This document shows positions 389 through 4,593 of a stretch of DNA of 5,037 nt, in pieces. The notes below the pieces were generated by a model. It saw only the letters and a program-made list of their open reading frames with translations, was not told where the DNA came from and ran no database searches. A program made the position numbers and the translations under genes. The DNA is from Candidatus Odinarchaeota archaeon. Its GTDB lineage: Archaea; Asgardarchaeota; Odinarchaeia; Odinarchaeales; Odinarchaeaceae. Position 1 is the stretch's first letter. Every line of letters starts with the position of its first letter. The stretch spans positions 1 through 5,037 of the forward strand of contig JAWBON010000079.1 in the NCBI GenBank assembly GCA_038826135.1, written 5' to 3'.

Positions 389-710
389 ATGGTTGAATCA
401 ATCGATCTTATAAAAAAGAAAATTTATGAGATTTTCAATATTAAAAAATAAAAATTGATAAAATCATACTTTTCGGTTCAAGAGCCAGAGGGAGGCGACG
501 AAATATAGTGACTGGGATATTTTGATAATAGTTGATGATAATATGACATTTAATGAGAAAAGAGAGTTAAAAAGACTTATCAGAAAAACACTCGCAGAAC
601 TCTTAATACCAGTAGATATTATAGTAAAAAATAAAGAAGAAATAGATTATTATAAAGAATTCATAGGCTCAGTTGTAAGAGAAGCTCTTAAAGAAGGGGC
701 TGTTATATGA
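389..710 (+). pseudogene. Minimal nucleotidyltransferase (MNT, Pol-beta superfamily) antitoxin-type gene with two -1 frameshifts
   Basis: Three frames join into one protein: MVESIDLIKKKIYEIFNIKK (389-448, then TAA 449-451), IKIDKIILFGSRARG (448-492) and EATKYSDWDILIIVDD...PVDIIV...KEGAVI* (492-710). Adding one A to the A6 run (443-448) and one G to the G3 run (490-492) gives 107 aa. That protein has the MNT hallmarks LFGSRARG, DxD (SDWDIL) and a later VDII strand. The ORF-track entry 522..710 is only the C-terminal fragment. Confidence 0.85.
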
Positions 711-1105
711 GCGAAAAAATTAACCTCTTGGTTAAAAAAGCCATAGAAGATTTTAAAACAGCCAAGATGAAATGAATTTACCTGAAAATGAAGCCGTAAC
801 AAGTTCAATCTGTTTCCATTGCCAACAATTTGTAGAGAAAATGTTGAAAGCGTTTCTAACGTTAAAAAAAGTAGATTTTGGAAAAACCCATAACATAGAG
901 TACCTATTAAAATTATGCACACAAAAAGACGGTGATTTTGAAAAAATAACACTCCCAGATTTAACAATAATATGCTGTTGAATTAAGATATCCCGACGAG
1001 TTTTACACCCAATCTTTTAAAGAGGCGAAGGAATGTTTCGAAGCGGTTTCAAAATTCAAAGAATTCATTCTTAAAAAATTAAAAATCAGAGAAACTAATT
1101 TATAA
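707..1105 (+). pseudogene. HEPN-domain protein (MNT partner) with a -1 and a +1 frameshift
   Basis: The ATG at 707 overlaps the MNT stop (ATGA). Pieces are MSEKINLLVKKAIEDFKTAK (707-766, frame stops at TGA 773-775), DEMNLPENEAVTSSICFHCQQFVEKMLKAFL...KTHNIEYLL...DLTI (766-969) and YAVELRYPDEFYTQSFKEAKECFEAVSKFKEFILKKLKIRETNL* (971-1105). CFHxQQxxEKxLKA, THxI/L and RYP are typical of the MNT-associated HEPN family (PF05168-like). The repaired length is about 132 aa. Confidence 0.85.
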
Positions 1106-1107
1106 AT
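1094..1107 (+). promoter_or_regulatory. BRE + TATA box upstream of the citG-family gene
   Basis: ACTAAT (1094-1099) matches the BRE consensus RNWAAW and is directly followed by TTATAAAT (1100-1107). Typical archaeal spacing puts the transcription start near 1126-1130, at the ATG at 1128. No Shine-Dalgarno precedes ATG 1122 or 1128, which fits a leaderless mRNA. Confidence 0.55.
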
Positions 1108-1121
1108 GGTAAAAAGTAGTT

Positions 1122-2097
1122 ATGAATATGCGATATACAGATATAGCCTGTAAAGCGTTAATATCTACACTTCTTGAGGTGAGCGGCTGGCCGAAACCTT
1201 GATTACAATCAAGGCGGTAAACCCGGAAACATACACCGGCAAGCCGACTACCCTAACACAAGATACGAGCATTTTATAATAGGTTCCATACCTGTCTATT
1301 ATTATTTTCTTAAAACAGCTAAAAAAACAGAGCTTCTAAGCCGTAGAGGAGAAGATTACAGTAAGCTGCAATTAGGTAAACTAATTTATCAGTCAGCGAA
1401 AGAATCCTACACCTGGCAGAGTGGTGGAAACATAAATCTCGGAACCTTAACTCTTTTAATCCCTTTAATAGCCGCGTACACCATAGCTGAAATCAGAAAC
1501 ATTAAAGATCAAGATAAACTCAGAGAAGAATCACATAGAATTGTAAAATCAACAACAGTTGAGGATGCGATCTATTTTTATAAAACTGTTAACCTTGTTA
1601 AACCCGGAGGCTTAGGAGGGAGCAGCGAATACGATATCACCGATCCCTTATTCCCAGCGAAAATCCGTCGAGACTGTAAAACACTATACGAACTGTTTAA
1701 AATAAGCGCTAAATGGGATAGCATATCAAAAGAATGGTTAACAGCCTATCAAATAACATATACAATAGGAGAGCCCGCATTCACCTCAACACTACAAGAA
1801 ACAAAAGACATAAACACCGCCACAGTCCACACCTTCCTAAAAATACTCAGCACAACACCAGACAGTTTAATTAAACGAAAAACAGACGAGCAAACAGCGG
1901 AGAAAATCACAGCTAAAGCCCGACAAGCCCTAAAACTGGGGGGATTAACCACACCCGAAGGAAGAGAATACATAAAAACATTTGATGAAGAGCTTCAAAA
2001 AAGCAAAGGCCTGTTAAACCCGGGCAGTACAGCTGATCTAACAGCAGCCTCAATAATGACTGCGTTAAATAAAAAAGATAAACTACCAATATATTAA
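1122..2097 (+). CDS. citG: Archaeal-type CitG family protein (triphosphoribosyl-dephospho-CoA synthase family), two exons: join(1122..1195,1221..2097); alternative start at 1128
   Basis: Exon 1 encodes MNMRYTDIACKALISTLLEVSGWP(K). I translated the frame from 1222 to TAA 2095-2097 by hand and found no stop. It reads PGNIHRQADYPNTRYEHF...GGNINLGTLTLLIP...VKPGGLG...TTPDSLIKRK...LNPGSTADLTAA. LEVxxxPKPGNxHR, NxNLG, PDSLIxRK and NPGS/TTADL are CitG-family motifs. The spliced CDS is 951 nt (316 aa). The ORF track misses it because the long frame has no in-frame start until near its end. Confidence 0.85.
1196..1220 (+). other. Candidate 25-nt bulge-helix-bulge (BHB) intron in the citG-family mRNA
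   Basis: The central helix is GCCG(1190-1193)/CGGU(1215-1218), with 3-nt bulges AAA(1194-1196) and AAA(1219-1221). The intron stem is CCUUGAU(1197-1203)/AUCAAGG(1208-1214) with a UACA loop. Cleavage after the 2nd nucleotide of each bulge joins CCG AA|A CCC GGA, restoring both the frame and the motif. The insertion carries an in-frame TGA (1200-1202). Confidence 0.8.
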
Positions 2098-2997: not shown

Positions 2998-4593
2998 TCA
3001 GTCGGGTGGTATATCCTTGAATCTTAAATCTATTGGAATACCTTGACGTCTTCGATACCATGTTGCCACATAGTATAGTACAACTGGGGTAATGCACAGG
3101 AACATCACTGTTGAAATTAGATATATCGCTTCCTGATAACCTCCAGCTACCACAGGTAGAATACTAGCGTAAACTATGTATGCGCTTAGTCCAGCTGTCA
3201 AAGCGCCTAAAACTGTTACTAGAGGAATTGACCCCAATTTTATTTGAACTATTGAAGGTGATTTCTGGAATATTGCACGCTGCCTATATGGGAACAGTAT
3301 ACCTGCAATACCGACTATAAACCAACCTATGAACCATGTTGTGATTGCGTAGTTTATGTAGTATAGCACAGAGGTGAACGTGTTTAATAGGAAGAATGTA
3401 TAAGCCATTGCAGCGCCCAGTAAAACAGCAGCGTAGGGTGAGCCTTTCCTATTAACCTTGTTTATTGCGTTAGGTAAGATACCGTCGAAAGACCATGCGA
3501 ACAGGTTTCTCACAGGACCGAATGGTAATCCAATAGCACCACTATGAGCACTAGCCATGAAGCCCATTGGAACTAGAGTCAGTAAAACTGGATTATCCGT
3601 CATATATAATACTATATGCGCTGGACTTGGGTGAACTCCGAAAGGCTGAATACCAGCCCAATCTAAAGTAGAGATTGCACCCCAGAACTCTCCACCAGTT
3701 CCAACCCATGAACTGCCGTACATAACCTCCCAGAACACCATAAGCATACAGAGAGATCCTATCACAGCCAAGGGTTGAGCTCTAGTTACGTTCTTTATTT
3801 CACCAGCCATATTAGTTGTATATGTATTGCCAAGGGTGTTTAGATTAACATACGTTGCACCGCAAGCTATAGTGGCTAAAAGACTGTAACCAGGAGTCCA
3901 GCCTAAACTCTGAGCCGGAATTAGTATGTCATTGGTATAATTTATACCTGATACTGCTAAAAGTCTCGACTGGAAAACTGCAGGACCTGCATTAAAACAT
4001 GCTACCGCGTATGCTATAAGCCCTATTACAGCTATAAAGAATTCAGCCCAACAGACATATATAAACGTCCTTACCCCTCTGTAAATTGCGTAGAAAGACA
4101 ATGCAAGAATAATTGAACCGACCCCGAATATCAGTAAAACTTCATTGTTTAACGCCAGACCGATATTTATAAGTGTTGTATTGCCACTTGCAATACCGTT
4201 GTTTAAAAATATGTAACCTGCACCCCAATTAATAGTCCAATTTGTAAGGACGCCGCCCCACGAAATACCTATAATAGTCAAAGTCCAGCAAGCGAATAGA
4301 CCCCATAATGGACTGATTATCCGACTGACATAAATATATTCACCGCCACTCCTCGGCATGCTGATCGATAGCAGAACATATAACCCCGCTATCGGAAACA
4401 TCATGAAAACCAACGAAACAGCTAGCGGCATATCTGCACCAGGATATAATGCTGGCCCCCAGATAATATAGTTCATACAGTGTAAAACACCAGGGTTCAC
4501 TGTTGCATAAATCAAGGCGTCCCAACCACTTACAGCTCTGGTTAAACCAGAGGCTTTTCTAACGAAGACTGTTCCTTCAGCCGTGGTTGCCAA
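2998..4593 (-). CDS. APC-superfamily amino acid/polyamine permease, 531 aa
   Basis: The N-terminal FVRKASGLTRAVS segment, the PRSGGEYIY loop, NTYxxxMAGE and the RNLFAWSFDGILP...KVNRKGSP motif are typical of APC transporters. The protein has many long hydrophobic segments. The TTG start has GGAGGAG 5 nt upstream. Confidence 0.92.
   Translation of the reverse strand: MATTAEGTVFVRKASGLTRAVSGWDALIYATVNPGVLHCMNYIIWGPALYPGADMPLAVSLVFMMFPIAGLYVLLSISMPRSGGEYIYVSRIISPLWGLFACWTLTIIGISWGGVLTNWTINWGAGYIFLNNGIASGNTTLINIGLALNNEVLLIFGVGSIILALSFYAIYRGVRTFIYVCWAEFFIAVIGLIAYAVACFNAGPAVFQSRLLAVSGINYTNDILIPAQSLGWTPGYSLLATIACGATYVNLNTLGNTYTTNMAGEIKNVTRAQPLAVIGSLCMLMVFWEVMYGSSWVGTGGEFWGAISTLDWAGIQPFGVHPSPAHIVLYMTDNPVLLTLVPMGFMASAHSGAIGLPFGPVRNLFAWSFDGILPNAINKVNRKGSPYAAVLLGAAMAYTFFLLNTFTSVLYYINYAITTWFIGWFIVGIAGILFPYRQRAIFQKSPSIVQIKLGSIPLVTVLGALTAGLSAYIVYASILPVVAGGYQEAIYLISTVMFLCITPVVLYYVATWYRRRQGIPIDLRFKDIPPD

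What the first reader, a model, noticed from the sequence alone, without database searches (positions are those of the whole stretch)
1183..1230. tRNA-type (bulge-helix-bulge) intron interrupting an archaeal protein-coding gene (citG family)
Seen in the sequence: the citG frame breaks exactly inside its most conserved N-terminal motif, with LLEVSGWPK in one frame and (K)PGNIHR 25 nt later in another. The insertion carries an in-frame stop. It folds with the exon edge into a BHB: central helix G1190.U1218, C1191-G1217, C1192-G1216, G1193-C1215; two opposite 3-nt AAA bulges; and a perfect 7-bp intron stem with a UACA tetraloop. The outer exon-exon helix is weak (G1189-C1222, possibly extended by G1186-C1223, G1185-C1224 and C1184-G1225 around a CU bulge). 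Established knowledge: the archaeal tRNA splicing endonuclease (EndA) cuts BHB motifs after the 2nd nucleotide of each bulge, and RtcB ligates the exons. The well-characterised mRNA example is cbf5 in Crenarchaeota. Applying that rule here removes 1196-1220 and yields GWPKPGNIHR plus a stop-free 316-aa protein. Inference: this mRNA is spliced by the tRNA machinery, which would extend archaeal pre-mRNA splicing to a metabolic/cofactor gene. Automated pipelines would call it a pseudogene or miss it. I cannot tell whether this instance has already been reported.
Basis: partly seen in the sequence, partly recalled or inferred. Interest (0 to 1): 0.95.

Follow-up and report, generated by a model that had tools for sequence, protein, structure and literature searches.

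The report
tRNA-type mini-intron in Asgard citG gene
A CitG-family enzyme gene of an Odinarchaeum (Asgard archaeon) is interrupted by a 25-base hairpin with the shape cut by the archaeal tRNA-splicing enzyme; relatives keep it in a way that only fits removal from the mRNA, which the literature I searched reports for only two other archaeal mRNAs.

Summary
Window 1196-1220 is a 25-nt insert in the Lys codon of the conserved motif LLEVSGWPK|PGNIHR of the genome's only CitG-family gene (PF01874). It folds as a bulge-helix-bulge (BHB). Cutting after the second base of each bulge gives a stop-free 316-aa protein colinear with intron-less orthologues.

The window is a whole contig of an Odinarchaeum MAG. 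Eight distinct Odinarchaeia loci carry an insert of 19-27 nt at the same codon. Three have lengths divisible by three with in-frame stops. The BHB is kept, with three compensatory pair changes. All other orthologues whose junction was read (34) are intron-less.

The gene is under strong purifying selection (dN/dS 0.10-0.14 at dS about 1). Exon 2 has no start codon before codon 279. The genome encodes two EndA paralogues and RtcB.

In this genome I confirmed BHB introns in kae1, gatA, gcvPA and a PF04008 gene. This scan had already reported such introns in other genes of other Odinarchaeia genomes; I found no citG follow-up.

Verdict: very probably a real EndA/RtcB-spliced mRNA intron, a new member of the cbf5 kind.

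The parts
1099..1106 (+). TTTATAAA, a candidate archaeal TATA box 16-22 nt upstream of the two ATGs; suggests a leaderless or near-leaderless mRNA
   Evidence: Direct reading; inference only, not tested.
1122..1195 (+). Exon 1: ATG 1122 (a second ATG lies at 1128) to the first two bases of the Lys codon; encodes MNMRYTDIACKALISTLLEVSGWP plus AA of Lys
   Evidence: Homologous to the N-termini of intron-less orthologues (...LLEVSG[WYF]PK). 74 nt in the three genus-level loci.
1184..1189 (+). 5' strand of the weak outer (exon-exon) helix: C1184, G1185, G1186 pair with G1225, C1224, C1223; G1189 can pair with C1222
   Evidence: MFE fold. In 8 sequences, pairs 1184:1225, 1186:1223 and 1189:1222 are kept in all; 1185:1224 is kept in 4 of 8.
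1190..1193 (+). 5' strand of the central 4-bp helix (GCCG), still exon sequence
   Evidence: 100% of cells paired in 8 sequences, with G-C/G.U alternation at 1190:1218.
1194..1196 (+). 5' bulge AAA; predicted cut after A1195
   Evidence: Invariant in 8 sequences.
1196..1220 (+). Intron, 25 nt; carries TGA (1200-1202) and TAA (1218-1220) in the exon-1 frame
1197..1214 (+). Intron hairpin: 7-bp stem 1197-1203/1208-1214 with loop UACA 1204-1207
   Evidence: In relatives the stem is 2-7 bp with other sequences; three pairs change on both sides.
1215..1218 (+). 3' strand of the central helix (CGGU), intron sequence
   Evidence: CGGY in all 8 sequences although non-coding.
1219..1221 (+). 3' bulge AAA; predicted cut after A1220
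   Evidence: It is AUA in L009, where only a cut after base 2 or 3 restores the conserved Lys.
1221..2097 (+). Exon 2: last base of the Lys codon, 291 further codons and stop TAA 2095-2097
   Evidence: Pfam CitG 17-283/284, E = 1.8e-61. No ATG/GTG/TTG before exon-2 codon 279. dN/dS 0.10-0.14.

Best explanation
[quoted passage not shown] The transcript folds so that two 3-nt bulges lie on opposite strands of a 4-bp helix (GCCG/CGGU), flanked by a 7-bp intron hairpin and a weak exon-exon helix. The heteromeric splicing endonuclease EndA is inferred to cut after the second base of each bulge (after A1195 and A1220). RtcB is inferred to join the exons and probably circularise the 25-nt intron. The joined mRNA encodes a 316-aa (314-aa if translation starts at ATG 1128) protein with the motif LLEVSGWPKPGNIHR restored. 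Shown here: the structure, its conservation at one codon in 8 Odinarchaeia loci with variable length and some compensatory changes, colinearity of the predicted product with intron-less orthologues, purifying selection, the lack of any start codon for exon 2, and the presence of the enzymes. Inferred: the cleavage and ligation themselves, the exact cut positions, and the enzyme's function. The intron was probably gained once in the Odinarchaeia stem. It is one of several such mRNA introns in this genome.
For: (1) Structure: the MFE fold is the BHB, and all coordinates were read directly.
(2) Product: removing 1196-1220 gives a 316-aa open frame. The junction motif matches 25 intron-less Asgard orthologues with no gap and 9 more metagenome sequences. 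Pfam CitG starts at profile position 17 at the first residue of exon 2.
(3) Relatives: all Odinarchaeales genomes with the gene (5 of 7 searched) have an insert at the same codon, and so do 3 further distinct loci. Lengths are 19, 19, 24, 25, 25, 26, 27 and 27 nt. The 24- and 27-nt inserts keep the frame but carry stops.
(4) Structure counts on 8 sequences: 89.9% of cells paired against 22-48% with slid partners. The central helix is 100% paired. Three inner-stem pairs change on both sides.
(5) Selection: dN/dS is 0.10-0.14 at dS about 1 within each genus.
(6) Exon 2 has no ATG/GTG/TTG before codon 279.
(7) Enzymes: there are two EndA paralogues, one with the Y/H/K catalytic residues, and RtcB. 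Asgard EndA is reported as the broad-specificity (alpha-beta)2 type (PMC5829648).
(8) Same genome: kae1, gatA, gcvPA and a PF04008 gene are each split by a canonical BHB, with adjoining Pfam coordinates on the two halves.
(9) The insert occurs in independent assemblies, including a one-contig genome of the same genus (G002/L008), so it is not an assembly artefact.
Against: The outer exon-exon helix is weak and interrupted, so the motif is a somewhat relaxed hBHBh'. Compensatory changes are few, and all come from one lineage (L059/L062); the first five sequences showed none. The shuffle control for the number of pairs with double changes is not significant (122/500). One relative (L010) has an inner stem of only 2 bp. 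Because both bulges are AAA, the cut register cannot be read from the product in this window.
Confidence: 0.88

Rival explanations
1. Pseudogene: a CitG-family gene inactivated by a small insertion, with the BHB-like fold a coincidence.
For: The gene is broken under normal translation. The neighbouring MNT/HEPN genes in the same window really are decayed by several frame shifts.
Against: dN/dS is 0.10-0.14 at near-saturated dS in three pairwise comparisons within the genus and one in the sister genus. Exon 2 stays open for 291 codons in a 37% GC sequence. The interruption lies at the same codon in 8 diverged loci, with different insert sequences and lengths that all keep the BHB. It is the only CitG copy in the genome.
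Confidence: 0.03
2. Translational recoding: the ribosome shifts frame or hops over the insert (as in phage T4 gene 60), taking off at AAA 1194-1196 and landing at AAA 1219-1221, helped by the hairpin and the nearby stop.
For: In the window the take-off and landing codons would match (AAA/AAA). A stable hairpin and a stop codon one codon downstream lie between them.
Against: In L009/L061 the 3' triplet is AUA, so there is no matching landing codon, while the splice rule still gives AAA. Gap lengths vary from 19 to 27 nt. The conserved elements are the 4-bp helix and two 3-nt bulges, which have no role in hopping. In gatA of the same genome the restored Ser codon is built from A of one exon and GU of the other, which no hop can produce. 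A simple +1/-1 shift cannot explain the 24- and 27-nt in-frame inserts with stops.
Confidence: 0.03
3. The gene really starts inside exon 2, as in the public annotations; exon 1 and the hairpin are a 5' leader or regulatory element.
For: NCBI records for two relatives give proteins of 272 and 284 aa that begin inside exon 2.
Against: Those models begin at what are Ile codons in the orthologous reading frame and lack the family's most conserved N-terminal motif. In the window there is no ATG/GTG/TTG in exon 2 before codon 279. Exon 1 encodes the homologous N-terminal segment (...LLEVSGWPK) seen in all intron-less orthologues. Pfam positions 1-16 are missing from exon 2.
Confidence: 0.03
4. EndA cuts the BHB but the exons are not joined: the motif is a decay or down-regulation signal, as in yeast tRNA-endonuclease-initiated mRNA decay, and little or no full-length protein is made.
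For: Cleavage without ligation is documented for eukaryotic TSEN targets (PMC10485636). Nothing here shows ligation.
Against: A purely destructive site would leave the single gene copy useless, yet both exons are under purifying selection. The predicted ligation product restores the conserved motif exactly in all 8 loci. RtcB is present. Essential genes (kae1, gatA) in the same genome carry the same kind of insert.
Confidence: 0.03

Closest known systems
cbf5 pre-mRNA intron of Crenarchaeota (Desulfurococcales, Sulfolobales; Watanabe 2002, Yoshinari 2006, Yokobori 2009 = PMC2738675)
   Same: A short BHB-type intron inside the coding sequence of a protein gene, in a lineage with a heteromeric splicing endonuclease. 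It is restricted to one clade and absent from orthologues elsewhere. The exon-side motif is often relaxed.
   Different: Different gene family (CitG-family enzyme versus pseudouridine synthase) and different phylum (Asgard, class Odinarchaeia). Here it is one of several interrupted protein genes in the same genome rather than a single case. cbf5 splicing has experimental support according to those papers; this one has none.
HVO_1309 mRNA of Haloferax volcanii, cleaved by the splicing endonuclease (Schwarz 2020 = PMC7714728; discussed in PMC10485636)
   Same: A non-tRNA, non-rRNA transcript carrying a BHB that the tRNA splicing endonuclease recognises. The review states that RNA-seq reads show the spliced form as the major product.
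   Different: It is a euryarchaeon with an alpha2-type enzyme. I did not check where the element lies relative to the coding sequence. In the window the intron splits a conserved catalytic-family motif, so splicing is obligatory for any full-length protein.
Archaeal pre-tRNA BHB introns (hBHBh' motif)
   Same: The same geometry: a 4-bp helix between two 3-nt bulges, cuts after bulge base 2, and a size within the tRNA-intron range (11-175 nt per PMC2738675). This genome's tRNA genes are heavily interrupted.
   Different: The host is an mRNA. The outer helix is made of coding sequence constrained by the GWPKPGN motif and is weak. ARAGORN and Rfam find no RNA gene here.
HAC1/XBP1 unconventional mRNA splicing (Ire1 plus tRNA ligase/RtcB)
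   Same: Spliceosome-independent removal of a short intron from an mRNA by a protein endonuclease, followed by ligation by the tRNA ligase; it changes the reading frame or product.
   Different: The nuclease (Ire1) and the recognition motif (paired stem-loops) differ. That system is regulated by stress, and no sign of regulation is known here.
Bacterial CitG/MdcB triphosphoribosyl-dephospho-CoA synthases
   Same: The Pfam CitG domain covers nearly the whole protein. The closest solved structure is 3h9p, a 'putative triphosphoribosyl-dephospho-CoA synthase'.
   Different: NCBIfam equivalog scores are 28-45 bits against cut-offs of 272-477, and only the C-terminal third aligns. Substrate and pathway in Asgard archaea are unknown.

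Membership tests
BHB (hBHBh') intron, substrate of archaeal splicing endonuclease | Two 3-nt bulges on opposite strands separated by a 4-bp helix | tested here: met
   1190-1193/1215-1218 with bulges 1194-1196 and 1219-1221. Kept in all 8 related sequences.
BHB (hBHBh') intron, substrate of archaeal splicing endonuclease | Flanking helices on both sides (intron-side h' and exon-side h) | tested here: inconclusive
   The inner helix is a perfect 7 bp. The outer helix is only G1189-C1222 plus 1184-1186/1223-1225 across an internal loop, so the form is relaxed. Such forms are reported to be accepted by (alpha-beta)2 enzymes (PMC5829648).
BHB (hBHBh') intron, substrate of archaeal splicing endonuclease | Cutting after the second base of each bulge yields a functional product | tested here: met
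   A 316-aa open frame results, and the junction motif is colinear with intron-less orthologues. In L009 (AAA/AUA) the rule restores Lys.
BHB (hBHBh') intron, substrate of archaeal splicing endonuclease | Structure conserved in relatives despite sequence and length change | tested here: met
   Inserts of 19-27 nt. 89.9% of cells paired against 22-48% in slid controls. Three pairs change on both sides, all in one lineage.
BHB (hBHBh') intron, substrate of archaeal splicing endonuclease | Organism encodes EndA and an RNA ligase (RtcB) | tested here: met
   PF01974 hits on C45 and on C48/C72, the latter being one gene across two overlapping contig ends. RtcB at E = 4e-149.
BHB (hBHBh') intron, substrate of archaeal splicing endonuclease | Cleavage and exon ligation observed in RNA | not testable with these tools
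CitG family (PF01874) | Match to the family profile above the curated cut-off | tested here: met
   208.7 bits against a cut-off of 27, profile positions 17-283 of 284 on exon 2.
True CitG/MdcB (triphosphoribosyl-dephospho-CoA synthase equivalogs) | Score above the NCBIfam equivalog cut-off | tested here: not met
   TIGR03132 45 against 282 bits; NF002315 41 against 280; TIGR03125 31 against 272; NF007503 28 against 477.
Translational bypass (T4 gene 60 type) | Matched take-off and landing codons in all members | tested here: not met
   AAA/AAA in the window but AAA/AUA in L009/L061.

The most novel reading that the evidence does not exclude
Odinarchaeia have made the tRNA-splicing pair EndA/RtcB an obligatory mRNA-splicing system for a set of metabolic and essential genes. 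They may also use it as a switch: for citG and the others, the share of transcripts spliced (set by temperature-dependent folding of the weak exon-exon helix, or by EndA/RtcB/Archease activity) would control how much protein is made. That would be an archaeal counterpart of HAC1/XBP1 regulation in the closest prokaryotic relatives of eukaryotes.
Probability: 0.12. Interest if true: 0.92.

Novelty: new member of a known kind. Interest (0 to 1): 0.8.

Why it matters
According to the review I read (PMC10485636), splicing by the archaeal tRNA endonuclease is documented for two archaeal genes, cbf5 in some Crenarchaeota and HVO_1309 in Haloferax. Six full-text searches found no report for Asgard archaea.

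This gene adds a metabolic-enzyme family and a new phylum. It sits in a genome where at least four other protein genes, two of them normally essential (kae1, gatA), are interrupted in the same way. If the splicing is real, EndA/RtcB is an mRNA-processing system that an Asgard lineage cannot do without. That bears on how protein-gene introns can arise and persist without a spliceosome.

There is also a practical consequence. Public annotations of these genes are wrong: NCBI lists N-terminally truncated CitG-family proteins for two relatives. In this window no standard ORF caller would report the gene at all. Gene catalogues and metabolic reconstructions of Odinarchaeia therefore miss or truncate such genes.

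Tried and rejected
- Metagenome scan with the exon-2 alignment: the one close relative (L049) starts just after the intron, and the other nine loci are intron-less. It added no intron variants.
- Genome-contig scan: its main use was to name the lineage.
- ARAGORN and Rfam on the window found nothing.
- My first genome-wide BHB scans, filtered only by open frames, gave thousands of false hits, mostly junctions between neighbouring genes. A scan requiring the exact MFE structure was too strict and missed kae1 and gatA. The usable version combined ORF restoration, a codon-usage score and a constrained fold, with geometry controls. A first attempt at those controls timed out.
- A looser scan produced many unverifiable candidates. 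I count none of them except the radical-SAM CxxxCxxC case, which I flag as seen only.
- Structure counts on the first five sequences showed no double-sided changes. These appeared only after adding loci fetched through truncated database proteins.
- Rejected readings: pseudogene, frameshift or hop, internal start, assembly artefact, and group I/II intron (19-27 nt is far too small). Reasons are given under the rivals.
- A search for intron sequence similarity to other BHB sites in the genome found only shared shape, not shared sequence.

Full report
**What is in the window.** The 5037-base window is a complete contig (C79) of a 1.26-Mb, 105-contig genome that is 93% complete and 38% GC. On the + strand, a frame opening at 1113 holds ATG 1122 and ATG 1128. 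It reads MNMRYTDIACKALISTLLEVSGWPKP and stops at TGA 1200-1202. A second frame, shifted by +1, is open from 1183 to 2097 and reads ...GGKPGNIHRQADY... for 304 codons. The standard ORF list does not report this gene, because the long frame has no ATG, GTG or TTG until exon-2 codon 279. From the Lys codon onward the long frame matches Pfam CitG (PF01874) at E = 1.8e-61, profile positions 17-283 of 284. The first 16 profile positions are therefore missing from it. It is the only CitG-family locus in the genome.

**The structure.** So are the bulges A1194-A1196 and A1219-A1221, the stem 1197-1203/1208-1214 (seven Watson-Crick pairs) and the loop UACA. ViennaRNA returns exactly this structure as the minimum-free-energy and centroid fold of 1176-1236 (-17.5 kcal/mol, z = -2.45). 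In that fold the outer helix is 1184-1186/1223-1225. This is the layout of an archaeal bulge-helix-bulge motif, with a weak exon-side helix. Cutting after the second base of each bulge removes 1196-1220 (25 nt). It joins CCG AA|A CCC GGA and gives a 316-aa stop-free protein containing LLEVSGWPKPGNIHR. Because both bulges are AAA, any common register gives the same product here.

**Who carries it.** A close relative (77% identical protein) is titled Candidatus Odinarchaeota archaeon J65_bin.29. The public protein of another is labelled Candidatus Odinarchaeum yellowstonii. The window is therefore from an Odinarchaeum, an Asgard archaeon.

- The gene was found in 49 of 61 related genomes.
- The five Odinarchaeales genomes that have it (of seven in the order) all show an open frame that breaks at the query's first residue. 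All others have 316-380-aa frames.
- Reading the DNA shows an insert at the same Lys codon in all five: 25 nt (window), 27 nt (L008), 25 nt (L009) and 19 nt (L010, L011).
- The 25 other Asgard loci that I read (L012-L036) have the contiguous motif LLEVSG[WYF]PKPGN[IV]HR or a near variant, with no gap relative to the predicted spliced product.
- The same holds for nine further metagenome loci (L050-L058), which are also intron-less. L038-L040 are intron-less too, but may duplicate sequences already counted.
- Truncated database proteins led to three more distinct Odinarchaeia loci with inserts of 26 nt (L059), 24 nt (L060) and 27 nt (L062) at the same codon.

**Why the insert must be removed from the RNA.**

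1. Three of the eight inserts (24, 27 and 27 nt) keep the reading frame but contain stop codons, while the others shift it. No single frameshift rule explains all eight. Excision explains every one.
2. In L009 the 3' bulge is AUA. The canonical cut still produces AAA (Lys, the residue conserved in nearly all orthologues), while a ribosomal hop would have no matching landing codon.
3. Spliced coding sequences give dN/dS of 0.10-0.14 at dS about 1.0 within each genus. The gene has stayed functional through long divergence with the insert in place.
4. Exon 2 cannot be translated on its own in this genome.
5. The non-coding 3' part of the insert (CGGY plus A[A/U]A) is invariant or nearly so in all eight sequences, although synonymous sites are saturated between the families.

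**Structure counts.** On the eight-sequence alignment, 89.9% of pair cells are standard pairs, against 22-48% when the 3' partners are slid by 1-3 columns. The central helix is paired in every sequence, with G-C alternating with G.U at one position. Three inner-stem pairs change on both sides (C-G to U-A, G-C to A-U, A-U to U-A). These compensatory changes all come from the L059/L062 lineage, so they represent few events. The first five sequences showed none, and one of the shuffle measures is not significant. The covariation evidence is therefore supportive but thin. The stronger evidence is the constant BHB core around a hairpin that varies in length (2-7 bp stems) and sequence.

**The machinery.** The genome has RtcB (E = 4e-149; its open frame of 995 aa has a large insertion between profile positions 50 and 49, possibly an intein). 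It also has two EndA paralogues. One lies on C45. The other is split over the overlapping ends of contigs C48 and C72 and carries the catalytic Tyr, His and Lys context. Kaneta et al. report that Asgard archaea have the (alpha-beta)2 enzyme with the L1 loop that confers broad substrate range (PMC5829648). Most tRNA genes that ARAGORN finds here are interrupted.

**Not an isolated case.** Earlier notes of this scan listed other candidate mRNA introns in this genome, so I ran my own scan of the genome. It looked for 3/3-bulge BHB motifs whose canonical excision joins two coding frames.

- At -16 kcal/mol or lower it returns six hits, against one each for 1/1, 2/2, 4/4 and 5/5 bulge geometries.
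- Pfam searches of the separate halves confirm four of them. For kae1, TsaD positions 6-61 adjoin 64-264. For gatA, Amidase 5-153 adjoins 156-445. For gcvPA, GDC-P 9-99 adjoins 101-428. For a PF04008 gene, exon 2 begins at profile position 19 after a 26-aa exon 1.
- In gatA the restored Ser codon is assembled from A and GU of different exons.
- A radical-SAM gene on C33 regains its CxxxCxxC motif in the same way. I saw this only in scan output.
- Follow-up reports of this scan on other Odinarchaeia genomes describe such introns in gatA, gcvPA, kae1, pyrG, eS30 and an adenosine-kinase-family gene. None concerned citG.

**What is known.** The review PMC10485636 states that the archaeal endonuclease functions in splicing of at least two genes, cbf5 of some Crenarchaeota and HVO_1309 of Haloferax, and that more probably remain to be found. 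PMC2738675 describes the clade-restricted gain and loss of the cbf5 intron and its often relaxed motif. Six full-text searches found no paper reporting BHB introns in Asgard protein genes. A 2026 preprint on Asgard tRNA introns does not mention mRNA, cbf5 or CitG. Absence from this library is not proof of absence from the literature.

**Annotation.** NCBI gives the Ca. Odinarchaeum yellowstonii orthologue as a 272-aa protein beginning MGYIPVY. It gives that of another Odinarchaeia MAG as 284 aa beginning MHRFANF. Both start inside exon 2, at what are Ile codons in the orthologous frame, and both lack the conserved N-terminal motif.

**Function of the protein.** It belongs to the CitG family by Pfam. 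It scores 28-45 bits against NCBIfam CitG/MdcB equivalogs whose cut-offs are 272-477 bits. The nearest solved structure is 3h9p, a putative triphosphoribosyl-dephospho-CoA synthase. I therefore call it a CitG-family enzyme of unknown substrate.

**Limits.** Nothing here shows an RNA molecule. The cut sites, the ligation and the fate of the intron are inferred from the motif, from comparative data and from established knowledge of EndA and RtcB.

**Verdict.** This is very probably a true mRNA intron removed by the splicing endonuclease (confidence 0.88). It is a new member of the kind first described for cbf5, in a new gene family and phylum, and part of a multi-gene set in Odinarchaeia.

Noticed in passing
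window 389-1105 (+): A MNT (nucleotidyltransferase) / HEPN toxin-antitoxin pair upstream of citG is broken by about four or five single-base frame shifts (near 449, 500, 770 and 965). Each looks like a lost base in a short homopolymer run. HEPN matches Pfam on two different frames. The other genes of the window are intact, so these are probably true pseudogenes rather than assembly errors. In relatives (L060, L061) an L22e-like gene directly precedes citG and the pair is absent.
   Followed up: partly
G000:C27:10905-11974 (-), = L042: kae1/tsaD is split by a 26-nt canonical BHB with an 8-bp outer helix and an 8-bp intron stem. Pfam TsaD positions 6-61 lie on exon 1 and 64-264 on exon 2. Splicing gives AFSQGPGLGPCLRAG.
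   Followed up: yes
G000:C35:8907-10426 (+), = L043: gatA is split by a 29-nt BHB inside GSDTGGS|VRQP. Pfam Amidase positions 5-153 and 156-445 lie on the two halves. The Ser codon is rebuilt from A plus GU.
   Followed up: yes
G000:C60:1383-2825 (-), = L044: gcvPA is split by a 30-nt GC-rich BHB (-26.7 kcal/mol) inside YTP|YQ. Pfam GDC-P positions 9-99 and 101-428 lie on the two halves.
   Followed up: yes
G000:C3:13657-14208 (-), = L041: An adenosine-specific-kinase family gene (PF04008) is split by a 27-nt BHB with a GGGG/CCCC central helix. Exon 2 starts at profile position 19 after a 26-aa exon 1.
   Followed up: yes
G000:C33, minus strand, reverse-complement positions 3067-3096: A 29-nt BHB whose removal restores a radical-SAM CxxxCxxC motif (GCTFRCAYCQN). 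Seen only in scan output; the halves were not checked against Pfam.
   Followed up: partly
G000:C89:112-1007 (+), = L045: A PALP (PLP-dependent enzyme) gene whose exon 2 begins at Pfam position 81 follows a 29-nt BHB candidate. The N-terminal 80 profile positions are unaccounted for, either because of the contig edge or because of a further intron.
   Followed up: partly
G000:C16:2586-5357 (+), = L004/L005: RtcB lies in one 995-aa open frame, with Pfam positions 1-50 and 49-426 about 1.4 kb apart. This suggests a large in-frame insertion, possibly an intein, in the ligase needed for splicing.
   Followed up: no
G000:C48:1-135 (-) and G000:C72:2-247 (+): The catalytic EndA subunit gene is cut by an assembly break. 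The two contig ends overlap by an identical stretch (...[42 protein letters not shown]).
   Followed up: partly
G000, many contigs: Most tRNA genes that ARAGORN finds carry introns, often at non-canonical positions, and several 'tRNA-Stop' calls look like mis-parsed multi-intron genes. This fits a lineage with a broad-specificity endonuclease.
   Followed up: no
G000:C5 (+) 10820, C66 (-) 4064, C45 (-) 3519 (strand-specific scan coordinates): These are the strongest hits of the altered-geometry control scans (2/2, 4/4-5/5 and 1/1 bulges; -17 to -21 kcal/mol). They may be real relaxed BHB introns rather than noise.
   Followed up: no
L008 (P0001) and L059 (P0002): Public NCBI protein records for the citG orthologues of Ca. 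Odinarchaeum yellowstonii (272 aa) and an Odinarchaeia MAG (284 aa) are N-terminally truncated models that start inside exon 2.
   Followed up: yes
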